NCBI GenBank assembly: GCA_963782055.1
Contig: CAWAIF010000003.1
Location: 3,168,001-3,232,000, forward strand
Length of the DNA: 64,000 bases
From: an uncultured delta proteobacterium
GTDB lineage: Bacteria; Myxococcota_A; Polyangia; Polyangiales; Polyangiaceae
Reading direction: 5' to 3'
The notes under the pieces: model-generated
The model's database searches: none
What the model was told of the DNA's origin: nothing
Seen by the model: the letters and a program-made list of their open reading frames with translations, nothing else
Shown: positions 1,049-3,896 of the stretch, piece by piece
How the letters are laid out: each line of letters opens with the position of its first letter
Position numbering within the stretch: the stretch's first letter is position 1
Made by a program: the position numbers and the translations under genes

Positions 1049-1829
1049 GGCCGTCGTGCCAGCGTGATGGCGATGGAGGGTTGCCACCATCGGGCCGACG
1101 CTCGCGCAGCGCCACGATGCCATCCCGAAGCGGGCGGTTCTCCCGTCCAGGGATCGGACCGGCGCGTCCTCTCGTCGTTCCGGACGCCGCCCCTCGCCCG
1201 ACAAGGACGAAGGGAGAACACGTGCCCCCTTCTCGCTCGGTCGCGCATAGGATTTCCCCATGGTGCGCCGTGAAGAAGCAGGTCGTCCGTCGGGCATGCC
1301 CGACGAACGACCTGCCTCAAGCTGCGCTTCTCCAGCGGGTGAGAGTCCCGCACCGGTAAGCGTCGGAGCGCCGGGTAGCAGGCCCCAGCCGAGCGGGAGA
1401 GATCCCGTCGGCCGAGCGGGGCGTCGAAAGGGTCCACGGACCGAGCGAGCACGCGGGCCGCAACATGAAGTGAAGCTTGCAGCCTCGTCAGATCTACAAA
1501 CCGGGAGCCGAGCCGATCATGTCGCGGCGAAGGCAATATCGGCGGCGCCAGATCCGAAACGCGCCGTCGGTCCCGGCGGGGTAGGGAGCGCAGCACGCGT
1601 GCAAGGAGGAGTGCGGAACTCGGGAGGCCCGTCTGCGTCGCCCTCGTCGGGGCAAGGCGCGTCGTATAAGCCAGAGGCGAAGTCGGCCGCTGCGCAGCGG
1701 GAGTCCGAGGGGGTCACTGTACCGAAGAGCGAGGCGCGAGCTTCGCGAACGAACGCCGTGAAGAACAACGCGGCAGGAGGGAAAGACCCCTGCAGTGGTC
1801 GTGTCGGCGGAGCAGGTAAGCGCGAGGGC

Positions 1830-3179
1830 ATGGCCGGCGAGACCGGTCCCAACCACCCCCATCGGCGACAGCCCATGGACAAAGTGCGACAACTGCAACG
1901 CCGGCTGTGTGCCGCGGCCAAGCGGCATCCGGAGCGCCGATTCCACGCGCTGTATGACCGCATCGCGAGGCGTGACGTCCTCGCGGAAGCGTGGAAGCGG
2001 GTAAGGAGGAACAAGGGAGCCGCGGGCGTCGATGCCCAGACGATCGCGGCGCTCGAGGTGTACGGAGTGGATCGACTCCTCGGAGAGATCCATGACGTGC
2101 TCCGTGCAGGCAGGTACCGGCCGGCAGCGGTGCTGCGCCGGTACATCCCGAAGGCCGATGGGAAGAAGCGGCCGCTTGGGATCCCGACGGTCCGAGACCG
2201 GGTGGTGCAGATGGCGACGAAGCTCGTGCTGGAGCCGATCTTCGAGGCGAGCTTTCGCTCGTGCTCGTACGGCTTCCGTATCGGGCGGAGCGCGACGGAC
2301 GCCCTGGAGACGCTGAGGAAGCTCGGCGCGAAGGGGTACAACCACGTGCTCGACGCCGACATCCGTGACTACTTCGGGAGCATCGATCACGACAAGCTGA
2401 TGAAGCTCGTCGAGCGGCGCATCTCGGACCGGAGGGTGCTCAAGCTGCTGCGGCAGTGGCTCACGGCGGGGGTGATGGACGAAGGCACGGTGACCAACCC
2501 CTCCAGCGGCACGCCGCAGGGCGGGGTGATCTCGCCGCTGCTCTCGAACATCTACCTCGCCGTGCTCGACGACGTGTGGACGAAGCGGTGCGCGCATCTT
2601 GGCGAGCTGGTTCGTTATGCGGACGACTTCGTCGTGATGTGCAGGACGAAGCGTGACGTCGACGAGGCCGAGCTTCGCGTGAAGCACGTGATGACGCGAC
2701 TCGGGCTCGAGCTGCACCCGGACAAGACGAGGAAGCTGGACCTCTCCTGGGGTAAGAAGGGGTTCGACTTCCTCGGCTGCCACCTGCGGAAACGCTTGAG
2801 CGGGTCCATCTGGGAGAGGTCGCGCAAACGCGTGTACTTCCTCCAGCGCTGGCCATCGGCTCGCGCGATGAAGCGGATCCGGCAGCGCGTGAGGGACCTC
2901 ACCCCGCGATCACGCTGCCACGCGGACCTGCGCGACGTCGTCGCGCAGCTCAACCCCGTGCTGCGTGGCTGGGGCGAGTACTTTCGCACCGGGAACGCCG
3001 ACGTGAAGTTCAACCGACTCGACGAGTACGTGTACGAACGGCTTCGAGCGCTGCGCCTGAAACGGGCCGGCTCGAAGCTCAAGGCCGGACAAGCCGAGCG
3101 CTGGACCCGCGACTACTTCGTCGAAGGCTTCGGGCTCCACCGCCTGCGCGGGACCATCCGCTACCCGGAGGCCGCGTAA
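1830..3179 (+). CDS. ltrA: Group II intron reverse transcriptase/maturase (start uncertain: ATG 1830 or 1875; frame is open back to host ATG 1260)
   Basis: Motifs KGAAGVD, YIPKADGKKRPLGIPTVRDRVVQ, SYGFR, DADIRDYF, GTPQGGVISPLLSNIYL, RYADD and FDFLG, plus X domain LNPVLRGWGEYF. No HNH endonuclease at the C-terminus. Confidence 0.95.
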   Translation: MAGETGPNHPHRRQPMDKVRQLQRRLCAAAKRHPERRFHALYDRIARRDVLAEAWKRVRRNKGAAGVDAQTIAALEVYGVDRLLGEIHDVLRAGRYRPAAVLRRYIPKADGKKRPLGIPTVRDRVVQMATKLVLEPIFEASFRSCSYGFRIGRSATDALETLRKLGAKGYNHVLDADIRDYFGSIDHDKLMKLVERRISDRRVLKLLRQWLTAGVMDEGTVTNPSSGTPQGGVISPLLSNIYLAVLDDVWTKRCAHLGELVRYADDFVVMCRTKRDVDEAELRVKHVMTRLGLELHPDKTRKLDLSWGKKGFDFLGCHLRKRLSGSIWERSRKRVYFLQRWPSARAMKRIRQRVRDLTPRSRCHADLRDVVAQLNPVLRGWGEYFRTGNADVKFNRLDEYVYERLRALRLKRAGSKLKAGQAERWTRDYFVEGFGLHRLRGTIRYPEAA

Positions 3180-3204
3180 TGCCGCGTCACGAGAGACCAC
3201 CGGT

Positions 3205-3299
3205 AAGCCGTGTGCGGGAAATCCGCACGCACGGTTTGAGAGGGGGTCTTGACTCCAACCGCCGCCGTAGGGCGGCCAAGGTGTAAGGATCTACCAATG
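3205..3299 (+). ncRNA. Group II intron catalytic domain V and domain VI
   Basis: DV is AAGCCGTGTGCGGGAAATCCGCACGCACGGTTT. DVI stem GGGGGTCTT(3242-3250) pairs with AGGATCT-A-CC(3286-3295), with A3293 bulged. Confidence 0.92.
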
Positions 3300-3896
3300 C
3301 ACCTCGATGAAGAGCTGCGAGGGCTGCTGCGTGGGAACTGGACGTTCGAGACCGCGCCGCCTGCGCTGCTCGCCCTCGGGCCACCGGCGCTGGACCGCCT
3401 TCTCGACGCGCCCTCCAGCGTCTTCTTTCCGACGGACACCGAATGGCGCGACTACGGCATGTACCGGCAGCACGCGGTCGCCGCCTTCGCGAAGCGCGAC
3501 CTGGACAGTGTGCTCGCGGCGATGAAGAAGCGGAAGTGGACGGACGCCGCCATCGGGCTCTCGGGCGTCGGCCTCGTGCGTGACGCTCGCGTCGTCCCGC
3601 TGCTCGTACGTCTGGTGGCCGACCCCGAGCCCATGCGCCGACAAGAGGCTGTCGAGCTCCTCGGCGGCCAGCGCGATCCGGACGCGACCGCCGCGGTTCT
3701 TCGCGCGCTGCGAGACCGTTCGTCCAACGTTCGACGCGCGGCGGTACACGCGCTCGGCGAGATTGGGGATCCGACAACGGTGGACGCGCTGGAGGAGGCC
3801 GCCCGCCGCTGGGCCAAGTCGCCGCTCATCGAAGCGGAGGTCGCTGCGACCCTCCGCAAGGTTCGCGACGCGGATCGACCCGCCGGGACCTCGTGA
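3297..3896 (+). CDS. HEAT/PBS-lyase repeat protein (intron host gene; original start ATG at 1260-1262)
   Basis: Repeats VPLLVRLVADPEPMRRQEAVELLG and VLRALRDRSSNVRRAAVHALGEIG. AAGGA SD 7 nt before ATG 3297. Confidence 0.8.
   Translation: MHLDEELRGLLRGNWTFETAPPALLALGPPALDRLLDAPSSVFFPTDTEWRDYGMYRQHAVAAFAKRDLDSVLAAMKKRKWTDAAIGLSGVGLVRDARVVPLLVRLVADPEPMRRQEAVELLGGQRDPDATAAVLRALRDRSSNVRRAAVHALGEIGDPTTVDALEEAARRWAKSPLIEAEVAATLRKVRDADRPAGTS

What the first reader, a model, noticed from the sequence alone, without database searches (positions are those of the whole stretch)
1249..3299. Start-codon-targeting group II intron that rebuilds the host ribosome-binding site and AUG at its own 3' end
Seen: the 5' flank is AGGAT-TTCCCC-ATG|GTGCG (1249-1262). 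The intron's last bases are AGGAT-CTACCA-ATG|CACCTC (3286-3299): the same SD core, the same 6-nt spacer and an ATG in frame with the downstream HEAT gene. Excising 1263-3299 restores ATG CAC CTC GAT GAA. Established: group II introns normally end in AY, and lineages targeting gene-boundary signals are known in general. Inference: this element homes to translation start sites and stays neutral, because both the spliced and the unspliced transcript give the host gene SD+AUG. The SD lies inside the DVI stem, so intron folding could gate host translation. I cannot tell from here whether this exact lineage is already described.
Basis: partly seen in the sequence, partly recalled or inferred. Interest (0 to 1): 0.9.

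Follow-up and report, generated by a model that had tools for sequence, protein, structure and literature searches.

The report
Intron homing to leaderless start codons
A mobile self-splicing intron sits exactly between the start codon and second codon of a gene that appears to be transcribed without a leader. It ends in a start codon of its own, and its relatives in many bacterial phyla do the same at unrelated genes, a targeting habit I could not find described in print.

Summary
Window 1263-3299 is an intact group II intron (GUGCG start, domain V, RT plus maturase ORF). Nine 5' and nine 3' junctions of 100%-identical copies are present in this genome.

- **Insertion site.** Every copy follows ATG (one follows GTG). 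Every copy ends ...CUACCAAUG and is followed by unrelated sequence.
- **Relatives.** 52 of 53 distinct relative sites, from many phyla, follow ATG or GTG. All 54 distinct intron tails end in AUG or GUG, with a bulged A seven bases from the end.
- **The upstream AGGAT is not a Shine-Dalgarno.** It belongs to TAGGAT, a -10 box. TAnnnT lies 6-8 nt before the start codon at 49 of 53 relative sites and 7 of 9 sites here. Only 0.68% of ATGs in this genome have that motif. The targets look like leaderless genes.
- **The tail SD is only partly general.** An SD-like core is suitably placed in 29 of 54 tails. The terminal AUG is universal.
The reading frame is open from the host ATG through ribozyme domains I-III into the RT in 55 of 68 mapped relatives. 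Only openness is conserved, not the peptide.
- **Not tested.** Splicing, transcription start sites and translation were not measured.

The closest description I found (IIB1 introns at start or stop codons) differs in a defining feature. This scan has already noted the same lineage on other DNA.

The parts
1248..1253 (+). TAGGAT, a -10-like hexamer of the host gene, 6 nt before its ATG
   Evidence: Sequence. The same TAnnnT-N6-8-ATG layout occurs at 7 of 9 own sites and 49 of 53 relative sites. It forms a genome-wide peak at spacers 6-8.
1260..1262 (+). Host start codon ATG. It is the last three bases of the 5' exon and the probable whole IBS1.
   Evidence: Position -4 varies (C 37, G 13, A 2, T 1 of 53). 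An intron-less ortholog in G001 starts at the same Met.
1263..3299 (+). Group II intron, 2037 nt
   Evidence: Identity between copies runs from GTGCG to CCAATG. Rfam hits.
1275..1318 (+). 5'-subterminal hairpin, variable in sequence and length among relatives
   Evidence: Inverted repeat (matches L013-L021). MFE folds of the window and 16 relatives.
1333..1582 (+). Domain I core matched by Rfam D1D4-4 and D1D4-6
   Evidence: 77.1 and 55.8 bits, both above gathering 49.
1464..1467 (+). CAUG in a 13-nt hairpin loop, the candidate EBS1 (CAU pairs with AUG)
   Evidence: CAU is kept at this place in most relatives that aligned (AACATGAAG 35, AACATCAAG 20 and minor variants; CCU 3 and CGU 2 do not fit). 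The assignment is inferred.
1260..3179 (+). 639-codon frame open from the host ATG through domains I-III to the RT stop codon
   Evidence: No stops in 190 codons, against 4 and 6 in the other two frames. Open in 48 of 58 plus 7 of 10 mapped relatives.
1830..3179 (+). Intron-encoded protein (RT plus maturase X, no D/En domains), starting at the conserved internal ATG
   Evidence: Pfam RVT_1 and GIIM. Of 79 relatives, 63 have ATG and 2 have GTG at the position taken for this codon; for many of the other 14 that position was extrapolated. The nearest solved RT is GsI-IIC.
3204..3238 (+). Domain V (AGC triad)
   Evidence: Rfam RF00029, 44.2 bits. MFE fold.
3242..3295 (+). Domain VI. Basal helix 3242-3250 with 3286-3295, bulged A3293 as branch point, inner hairpin 3257-3284.
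   Evidence: MFE fold. Pair counts on 61 distinct strand pairs show covariation at pairs 6-11. A is at -7 in 54 of 54 distinct tails.
3284..3290 (+). UAAGGAU, the SD-like 3' strand of domain VI, 6-7 nt before the terminal AUG
   Evidence: Sequence. Paired with 3245-3250. An SD-like core is present in 29 of 54 distinct tails.
3297..3299 (+). Intron-terminal AUG, in frame with host codon 2
   Evidence: Constant among identical copies while the 5' triplet varies. 49 ATG and 5 GTG of 54 tails.
3300..3896 (+). 3' exon: HEAT-repeat gene from codon 2 to its stop codon
   Evidence: Ortholog in G001 at 63% identity over residues 1-194.

Best explanation
Window 1263-3299 is an active-looking copy of a widespread lineage of endonuclease-less group II introns. 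The lineage is specialised for the start codons of leaderless genes.

Shown:
- The intron lies between the start codon and codon 2.
- The target is a -10-type hexamer (TAnnnT), then 6-8 nt, then ATG or GTG.
- The intron begins GUGCG and ends ...CUACCAAUG, with a bulged branch A seven bases from the end.
- The terminal AUG belongs to the intron.
- The reading frame from the host ATG stays open through ribozyme domains I-III into the RT.

Inferred:
- The host promoter starts the transcript at the A of the ATG, so the 5' exon is only AUG. It is held by a 3-nt EBS1 (CAU).
- Ribosomes loading on that 5' AUG read through the ribozyme into the RT. This makes an N-terminally extended enzyme, or at least prevents premature termination and polarity. 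A conserved internal AUG may serve as well.
- Splicing restores AUG plus codon 2.
- In RNA that has not completed splicing, the terminal AUG gives the host ORF the same start. In this sub-lineage UAAGGA, 7 nt upstream and sequestered in domain VI, could help.
For: Anatomy: Rfam hits and the RT/maturase ORF.

Own genome:
- Nine 5' and nine 3' junctions of identical copies. All follow ATG or GTG and all end CCAATG.
- Downstream ORFs are in frame. Four open with signal or lipoprotein-type N-termini.
- 7 of 9 sites have strict TANNNT at spacer 6-7, against 0.68% of all 135,094 ATGs. TANNNT peaks genome-wide at spacers 6, 7 and 8 (392, 302, 224, against about 100 elsewhere).

Relatives (best 80 of 578):
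- 53 distinct 5' flanks give 49 ATG, 3 GTG and 1 AGG. TANNNT lies at spacer 6, 7 or 8 in 31, 10 and 8 of them.
- 9 of 10 further sites mapped with a looser pattern also carry TANNNT at spacer 6-7.
- 56 of 67 downstream in-frame ORFs reach 100 aa or more.
- In 6 of the 9 relative ORFs scanned, a Pfam domain's first profile positions (1-2) align to residues 2-9 of the ORF. These are EVE, DJ-1, chorismate synthase, TrmE_N (two ORFs) and glyoxalase.

Intron-less orthologs in congeners start at the same Met behind a -10-like hexamer plus 6-7 nt. The HEAT ortholog shares the Met.

3' end: A is at -7 in 54 of 54 tails, and 49 end ATG and 5 GTG. The domain VI helix covaries.

The terminal triplet belongs to the intron. 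Among same-family copies the 5' triplet varies while the 3' triplet stays constant: L009 GTG, L076 GTG against L077 ATG, L092/93 GTG against L094/95 ATG.

Open frame:
- 48 of 58 and 7 of 10 mapped relatives are open for 600 aa or more. The other two frames hold 1-10 stops in the first 190 codons.
- The distance from the intron start to the RT ATG varies from 531 to 594 nt in the in-frame relatives checked and is a multiple of 3.
- Substitutions are flat across codon positions upstream (27/33/24 and 22/27/24). In the RT they are biased to the third position (34/28/85 and 26/10/70).
Against: - No transcription start, splice junction or protein was observed. The RNA libraries laid gave only contigs internal to the intron.
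- 13 of 68 mapped relatives, plus the Embleya copy, have a closed or shifted upstream frame. Six of them are open back to 11-188 nt from the intron's 5' end.
- An internal ATG in a conserved GGUAAGCGCGAGGGC-AUG motif is kept in 63 of 79 relatives, with 2 GTG. The RT may therefore not need the host AUG.
- The SD-like core is absent from 25 of 54 tails.
- The two-hexamer sigma-70 scan found no promoter in 1050-3450.
- The HEAT ortholog in G001 has its TATGAT 14 nt upstream of the ATG, not 6-8.
- One relative (L062) sits after an ATG with no -10, antisense to what looks like coding sequence.
- The EBS1 assignment fails for 5 relatives (CCU, CGU).
Confidence: 0.75

Rival explanations
1. The key adaptation is a rebuilt ribosome-binding site. 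SD plus AUG at the intron's 3' end lets the unspliced RNA be translated into the host protein, and folding of domain VI gates this.
For: UAAGGA lies 7 nt before the AUG in the window. An SD-like core sits 5-10 nt upstream in 29 of 54 tails. U-G wobble pairs are tolerated opposite the GGA (24 of 61 at pair 8), as if the 3' strand sequence were kept for its own sake. The terminal start codon is universal and varies only between AUG and GUG.
Against: 25 of 54 tails have no such core, including all the beta-proteobacterial and actinobacterial ones, yet they keep the AUG. The supposed matching SD in the 5' flank is a -10 box. The SD is fully paired in the MFE structure. No translation data exist.
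Confidence: 0.35
2. The tail is a portable promoter. In DNA, (T/A)AGGAT-CTACCA-ATG copies the -10 plus 6 nt plus ATG layout of the target genes. It would then fire a leaderless host mRNA directly, with no need for splicing.
For: A at -11 and T at -7 relative to the terminal A are present in 43 of 54 tails, and the full TANNNT plus 6 in 19 of 54. Spacer 6 is the commonest spacer at host sites (31 of 53; genome peak). TGT precedes AAGGAT in the window.
Against: T at the first hexamer position occurs in only 19 of 54 tails, whereas TANNNT at spacer 4-8 occurs at 51 of 53 host sites. T-7 and the CUACC stretch are already explained by pairing with the conserved GGGGG strand. Actinobacterial tails do not fit. 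No second intron copy directly follows a terminal ATG in the 3' flanks printed for 79 relative loci, as might be expected if the tail were a true target. The scan found no promoter there.
Confidence: 0.15
3. The terminal AUG is an RNA requirement with no role in translation. For example, it could mimic IBS1 and pair with EBS1 (CAU) to place the 3' splice site or protect the free intron.
For: AUG and GUG both pair with CAU, so the only variation seen (5 GUG of 54) fits pairing as well as it fits start-codon use. The AUG is kept in clades that have neither an SD nor a -10 mimic.
Against: No known group II tertiary contact uses the last three intron bases in this way (from my own knowledge, not a call). 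The AUG is in frame with a long host ORF at 56 of 67 sites, although the geometry of insertion already forces that.
Confidence: 0.25
4. The start-codon and -10 pattern reflects survival and not targeting. The intron inserts after many ATGs, and only copies at leaderless starts are expressed and tolerated.
For: A 3-nt IBS1 gives little specificity. One ectopic copy (L062) lacks a -10. The variable 6-8 nt spacer fits promoter function better than rigid recognition by the intron particle.
Against: All nine sites of 100%-identical, hence recent, copies carry the motif. One of them (L004) precedes only a 20-codon ORF, antisense to the end of a DDE transposase gene. There, host-gene preservation cannot be the filter. 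The first exon base is C at 8 of 9 sites, against 38% at comparable sites.
Confidence: 0.3
5. The ATG at both ends is a 3-bp target-site duplication or an alignment artefact, and the intron really ends at CUACCA.
For: Three relatives have GTG at both ends (L034, L078, L090).
Against: Nine relatives are discordant: L076, L092, L093 and L096 (5' GTG, 3' ATG); L054, L070 and L101 (5' ATG, 3' GTG); L072 (5' AGG, 3' ATG); and L040 (GTG before a GAGCG intron start, 3' ATG), with its near-identical sibling L041 the same. The 3' triplet is constant within families. The canonical GUGCG start and a branch A with six bases after it favour ATG|GUGCG...AUG|.
Confidence: 0.02

Closest known systems
Specialised subgroup IIB1 (CL1) clade at initiation or termination codons: Avi.groEL, EcKTE56.groEL. 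Michel et al. 2007 Biochimie, known to me only as described in Gomes et al. 2025, PMC12584367 (Introduction and Discussion read).
   Same: Group II introns tied to start or stop codons of protein genes. Both carry an extra element in the 5' strand at the base of domain I, and the window has a hairpin at that place.
   Different: That clade is defined by a 300-700 nt subdomain Ia, a IIB1 ribozyme, a CL1-lineage RT and proteobacterial hosts. Here the hairpin is about 44 nt, domains I-III total 567 nt, and the RT has no D/En part. The RT scores best against a IIC RT, and hosts span many phyla. The passages I read mention no -10 box, no terminal AUG and no exon-phased ORF for that clade.
Class C (IIC) group II introns, for example GsI-IIC and B.h.I1
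   Same: Endonuclease-less RT. GsI-IIC is the nearest solved RT (197 bits). The 5' exon pairing is very short (3-4 nt). The target is a gene-boundary signal and not a long unique sequence.
   Different: IIC introns insert after terminator or attC hairpins. Here the 5' flank is a -10 hexamer plus start codon with no hairpin or T-run. The ribozyme here is longer, and it ends UG and not AY.
Yeast mitochondrial introns aI1 and aI2 (IEP ORF in phase with the upstream exon; recalled, not from a call)
   Same: The RT reading frame is continuous with the upstream exon's frame.
   Different: Those are organellar IIA introns deep inside cox1. Here the upstream exon is only the start codon, and the in-phase stretch is the ribozyme itself, with no sign of selection on its peptide.
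B.c.I4-type introns with a 3' extension after domain VI (recalled, not from a call)
   Same: An unusual 3' terminus in a bacterial group II intron.
   Different: Here there is no extra domain after domain VI. The branch A sits at the normal distance and only the last bases differ from AY.

Membership tests
Group II intron (bacterial, RT-encoding) | 5' end GUGYG | tested here: met
   GTGCG at 1263-1267, the point where identity between copies begins.
Group II intron (bacterial, RT-encoding) | Domain V and domain I-IV ribozyme core | tested here: met
   RF00029 at 44.2 bits (gathering 40), RF02003 at 77.1 and RF02005 at 55.8 (gathering 49).
Group II intron (bacterial, RT-encoding) | Domain VI with a bulged branch A 7-8 nt from the 3' splice site | tested here: met
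   A3293 is bulged and seventh from the end. A is at -7 in 54 of 54 distinct tails, and the helix covaries.
Group II intron (bacterial, RT-encoding) | 3' end AY | tested here: not met
   The intron ends AAUG. 49 of 54 tails end AUG and 5 end GUG. This is a departure in one consensus feature only.
Group II intron (bacterial, RT-encoding) | Intron-encoded RT with maturase (X) domain | tested here: met
   RVT_1 at 1.1e-36 and GIIM at 1.1e-16.
Group II intron (bacterial, RT-encoding) | Self-splicing and retromobility | not testable with these tools
   Only indirect evidence: nine identical copies with exact ends.
IIB1/CL1 start- or stop-codon clade (Michel 2007 via Gomes 2025) | Insertion within or next to initiation or termination codons | tested here: met
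IIB1/CL1 start- or stop-codon clade (Michel 2007 via Gomes 2025) | Large 5'-subterminal insertion (subdomain Ia) of about 300-700 nt | tested here: not met
   Only a hairpin of about 44 nt at 1275-1318. The intron start to the RT ATG is 567 nt in all.
IIB1/CL1 start- or stop-codon clade (Michel 2007 via Gomes 2025) | CL1-lineage RT and IIB1 ribozyme | tested here: inconclusive
   No D/En domain by Pfam. GsI-IIC scores 197 bits against 172 for the chain 6me0_C ('Maturase reverse transcriptase'), which I take from memory to be a CL1-lineage RT. No labelled class phylogeny was available.
Class C (IIC) introns | Insertion just after a terminator or attC hairpin | tested here: not met
   The 5' flanks are -10 hexamer plus start codon. 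The scan found no terminator-like site in the 5' flank.
Class C (IIC) introns | Short IBS1-EBS1 pairing (3-4 nt) | tested here: inconclusive
   Only ATG is conserved in the flanks and position -4 varies. CAU sits in a domain I loop. No pairing was shown.
Class C (IIC) introns | RT of the class C lineage | tested here: inconclusive
   The nearest solved RTs are IIC. Apart from an Embleya copy of this same lineage (58%), the nearest plasmid hits are 46-53% identical (Streptomyces, Paenibacillus, Leptospira, Bacillus). No tree was built.

The most novel reading that the evidence does not exclude
The intron particle does not read a DNA sequence. It reads a promoter caught in the act. At a leaderless promoter the open complex of RNA polymerase melts the non-template strand from the -10 hexamer to just past the start codon. 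The intron, whose exon-binding site needs only AUG, would reverse-splices into that exposed strand. This would be the first retroelement that uses transcription-bubble DNA as its target. The resulting 3-nt 5' exon would also raise the possibility that abortive pppAUG transcripts act as exon in trans.
Probability: 0.15. Interest if true: 0.95.

Novelty: new variant of a known kind. Interest (0 to 1): 0.8.

Why it matters
The 2015 review I searched by keyword lists three target specificities for bacterial group II introns: homing sites, terminators and attC sites (PMC4424553, passages). A lineage spread over many phyla that lands on -10 box plus start codon would add a fourth.

It also shows a mobile element built around leaderless gene expression. 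The element appears to borrow the host promoter and start codon for its own reverse transcriptase and to hand the host gene a replacement start codon.

Practical consequences:
- It gives a testable system for how a ribozyme works with a three-base exon.
- It gives a testable system for how translation and ribozyme folding compete on one RNA.
- Its insertion sites could serve as a marker of leaderless genes in genomes that have no transcription-start data.
- Gene callers will tend to mis-annotate both the long fused ORF and the start of the interrupted gene.

Tried and rejected
- **RNA evidence.** One run search and one laying of four soil metatranscriptome runs. Contigs identical to the intron cover about 1311-3245. 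None covers the flanks except one 184-nt piece at 3712-3895. There are no joints and no usable ends. This says nothing about splicing, transcription start or expression.
- **Two-hexamer promoter scan of 1050-3450.** No sites found. The scan is not designed for -10-only leaderless promoters.
- **EBS1 extension.** The base after CAU (G or C) does not track the -4 base of the flank when searches are compared by eye. I therefore treat only AUG as paired.
- **Target-site duplication reading.** Rejected on nine discordant 5'/3' triplet pairs.
- **Membership in the IIB1 start/stop clade.** Rejected on the missing large insertion.
- **Class placement of the RT.** I had no labelled reference set. The PDB and plasmid searches only show that IIC-type RTs are nearest.
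- **Literature.** Eight full-text searches found no description of group II introns at leaderless start codons, ending in AUG, or with an exon-phased ORF in bacteria.
  - Michel et al. 2007 is not held. It may bear on novelty.
  - Keyword passages of PMC3552965, PMC3753933, PMC8919778 and PMC4748821 had nothing relevant.
- **Annotated example.** The Embleya plasmid hit had no annotation.
- **L012 site.** The gene content downstream of it was not resolved.
Full report
**What is at the coordinates.** At the other end it reads TAAGGAT 3284-3290, CTACCA, ATG 3297-3299, CACCTC. Rfam places group II domain I-IV models at 1333-1468 and 1481-1582 and domain V at 3203-3265, all above gathering score. 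The ORF carries RVT_1 and the group II maturase domain and nothing after them. The gene behind the intron is a 199-aa HEAT-repeat protein.

**The boundaries are those of a mobile unit.**
- The window's genome (7.58 Mb, 71.7% GC) holds seven uninterrupted 100%-identical copies.
- One more copy is split by a 1.5-kb insertion in domain VI, and one is rearranged.
- Nine 5' junctions read CATG|GTGCG (eight) or CGTG|GTGCG (one).
- Nine 3' junctions all read CTACCAATG| followed by unrelated sequence, with C as the first base in eight.
- A domain V search of the genome finds only these nine.
- ORFs continuing from the terminal ATG are 199, 218, 136, 20, 85, over 500, 284, 141 and 93 codons long. Four open with signal or lipoprotein-type N-termini directly after the Met.

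**The upstream motif is a -10 box and not a Shine-Dalgarno.**
- The nine 5' flanks carry TAGGAT (three), TACCAT (two), TAACGT and TACCGT at 6-7 nt before the start codon. Two carry one-base-longer variants, TAACGGT and TAGGGCT. TACCAT and TAACGT cannot be ribosome-binding sites.
- Genome-wide, TANNNT upstream of ATG peaks at spacers 6, 7 and 8 (392, 302 and 224 sites, against roughly 100 at other offsets). So the leaderless layout is a real feature of this organism.
- Only 0.68% of its 135,094 ATGs have that motif.
- Sites with the motif are followed by ORFs of 100 codons or more in 79% of cases, against 40% for random ATGs.

**Relatives.** A scan of one genome per species confirmed 578 relatives of the RT. 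The best 80 (56-90% identity) come from Myxococcota, Acidobacteriota, Planctomycetota, Beta- and Gammaproteobacteria, Actinomycetes, Gemmatimonadota and others.

I mapped the 5' boundary in 58 of them. The other 22 were dropped for these reasons:
- 3 lie at a contig edge.
- 4 had no match to the 5' probe.
- 15 were not caught by my pattern.

Ten of those 15 were mapped later with a looser pattern.

Results for the relatives:
- Among 53 distinct flanks with at least 25 nt, the codon before the intron is ATG in 49, GTG in 3 and AGG in 1.
- TANNNT lies at spacer 6, 7 or 8 in 31, 10 and 8 of them, and at spacer 4 or 5 in 2. The last 2 have NANNNT at spacer 6.
- Nine of the ten later-mapped sites also carry the hexamer. 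The exception, L062, lies antisense to what looks like coding sequence.
- Downstream, 56 of 67 sites with enough flank have an in-frame ORF of at least 100 codons.
- In six of the nine relative ORFs scanned, a Pfam domain's first profile positions align to residues 2-9. These are EVE, DJ-1/PfpI, chorismate synthase, two TrmE_N and glyoxalase. These are the true N-termini of unrelated proteins.

**Empty sites.**
- The HEAT ortholog in a congener (63% identity) has no intron and starts ATG AAC ATC GAT at the same Met. Its upstream region differs, with TATGAT 14 nt away.
- The gene at a second occupied site (L002) is intron-less in four congeners. All four start MAHWEHR behind TAGCAT, GAAGAT or GATGAT plus 6-7 nt.
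- A third (L007) is intron-less in two congeners, behind TACACT plus 7 plus ATG and TAGACT plus 6 plus GTG.

**The 3' end.**
- The MFE fold of 3203-3320 gives domain V and then a long domain VI at 3242-3295. Its basal helix pairs 3242-3250 with 3286-3295 and bulges A3293.
- I counted this helix in fixed register on 61 distinct strand pairs. Pairs 1-5 are nearly invariant. Pairs 6-11 covary: U-A/C-G, C-G/G-C/U-A, U-G/C-G/U-A/G-C and so on.
- The bulged A is seventh from the end in all 54 distinct tails. 49 tails end AUG and 5 end GUG.
- Because ATG stands at both ends, sequence alone allows four registers. The canonical GUGCG start and the branch distance favour ATG|GUGCG...AUG|.
- The terminal triplet belongs to the intron. 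Within families of near-identical copies the 5' triplet changes with the site while the 3' triplet does not. Examples are L009 GTG here, L076 GTG against L077 ATG, and L092/93 GTG against L094/95 ATG.

**How general is the SD?**
- In the window, UAAGGA lies 7 nt before the AUG and is fully paired in domain VI.
- Across tails, an AGGA, GGAG or GAGG core lies 5-10 nt upstream in 29 of 54.
- The beta-proteobacterial (CCAACGU) and actinobacterial (CCCCUGAC) versions have none, with matching changes in the opposite strand.
- A -10 reading of the tail fits 19 of 54 tails in full (TANNNT plus 6) and 43 of 54 loosely. However, T-7 and CUACC are already fixed by pairing.
- So the SD is a plausible function in this sub-lineage and not a property of the whole lineage. 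The terminal start codon is a property of the whole lineage.

**The reading frame.**
- From the host ATG at 1260 the frame runs open for 639 codons to the RT stop at 3179. It has no stop in the 190 codons that overlie domains I-III, against 4 and 6 in the other two frames.
- The same holds in 48 of 58 relatives, where the other frames carry 1-10 stops, and in 7 of the 10 mapped later.
- In the in-frame relatives checked, the distance from the intron start to the RT ATG varies from 531 to 594 nt and is a multiple of three.
- Of the ten exceptions, six keep the RT frame open to within 11-188 nt of the 5' end but are shifted. One has a single in-frame stop, and three are closed for longer stretches. 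The Embleya copy, at 58% identity, is closed too.
- Substitutions between the window and close relatives are spread evenly over codon positions upstream (27/33/24 and 22/27/24). In the RT they pile on third positions (34/28/85 and 26/10/70). Openness is selected, not the peptide.
- Against exclusive use of the host AUG, an internal ATG in a conserved GGUAAGCGCGAGGGC-AUG motif is kept in 63 of 79 relatives, plus 2 GTG. For many of the other 14 the codon position was extrapolated. The nearest purine-rich stretch lies only one base away from this ATG.

**Mechanism.**

Shown:
- the target layout;
- the boundaries;
- the branch geometry;
- ownership of the terminal AUG by the intron;
- the conserved open frame.

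Inferred:
- The host promoter starts the RNA at the A of the ATG, so the 5' exon is AUG alone. Position -4 is not conserved. A CAU sits in a 13-nt hairpin loop of domain I in most relatives that aligned.
- Ribosomes entering at the 5' AUG run through the ribozyme into the RT. This either makes an extended enzyme or prevents premature termination and polarity.
- Splicing rebuilds AUG plus codon 2.
- RNA that has not completed splicing still offers the host ORF an in-frame AUG, helped here by the SD when domain VI is open.

Whether the site bias comes from direct recognition or from survival is open. Three points favour recognition:
- All sites of identical copies carry the motif.
- One of them (L004) precedes only a 20-codon ORF, antisense to the end of a DDE transposase gene.
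- The first exon base is C in 8 of 9 sites, against 38% at comparable sites.

The variable spacer suggests that the feature recognised is a working promoter, not a fixed sequence.

**Comparison with what is known.** Gomes et al. 2025 (Introduction and Discussion read) describe, citing Michel et al. 2007, a IIB1 clade at initiation or termination codons of proteobacterial housekeeping genes. That clade is defined by a 300-700 nt subdomain Ia.

The window's intron compares as follows:
- It has only a 44-nt hairpin at that place.
- Its RT is endonuclease-less, and the nearest solved relatives are IIC enzymes.
- Its hosts span many phyla.
- Unlike IIC introns, its flank is a promoter and not a terminator hairpin.

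The 2015 review lists only homing sites, terminators and attC as target types (passages). Eight full-text searches found nothing on leaderless start-codon targeting. Michel et al. 2007 itself could not be read.

**Earlier notes of this scan.** Notes on eight other windows describe the same lineage with similar readings. I reached mine before seeing them, and re-tested each shared claim here.

Noticed in passing
G000:C3:5377627-5379142 (loci L008/L012): One intron copy is interrupted inside the domain VI hairpin by a 1.5-kb element with terminal inverted repeats. The target sequence is repeated on both sides of it. It carries a long ORF that looks like an IS66-type transposase; that name is recalled and was not checked against a library.
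   Followed up: partly
G000:C3:2503249-2504075 and 2517651-2518302 (L009/L011, L010): A rearranged copy. The 5' part has an internal deletion (query 836-1400). The 3' part lies 14 kb away on the other strand, and the two share a 6-nt breakpoint overlap. It looks like an inversion with one end inside the intron.
   Followed up: no
L004 (G000:C3:4454106-4459150): This copy sits behind TAACGT plus 6 nt plus ATG, followed by only a 20-codon ORF. The site is antisense to the 3' end of a DDE_Tnp_1 transposase gene, so it matches the motif without being a normal gene start.
   Followed up: partly
L090, L092-L096, L100: An actinobacterial clade of the same lineage reads ATG or GTG and then UCGCG or UUGCG in place of GUGCG. 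Either the 5' end is non-canonical, or the register is shifted by one base (AT|GUCGCG...CCAAU|G). The shifted register would give a normal AU 3' end.
   Followed up: partly
L098:4390-4518: In a Polyangiaceae relative the stretch from the start of domain V to the intron end is 129 nt against 97 in the window, and the extra sequence lies within domain V.
   Followed up: no
L072 and L062: L072 has AGG and not ATG before the intron, behind a good TAGAAT plus 6. L062 is an ectopic copy after an ATG without a -10 hexamer, antisense to what looks like coding sequence.
   Followed up: no
G000, whole genome: TANNNT upstream of ATG peaks sharply at spacers 6-9, an excess of roughly 700-800 sites. A sizeable share of this organism's genes therefore look leaderless. 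The commonest hexamers end in CT (TACGCT, TATGCT, TAGGCT), whereas the seven intron sites with a strict hexamer have A or G at the fifth position.
   Followed up: partly
window 1311-3245: Contigs from small soil metatranscriptome libraries match the intron with no or almost no differences, while the unique flanks are almost uncovered.
   Followed up: partly
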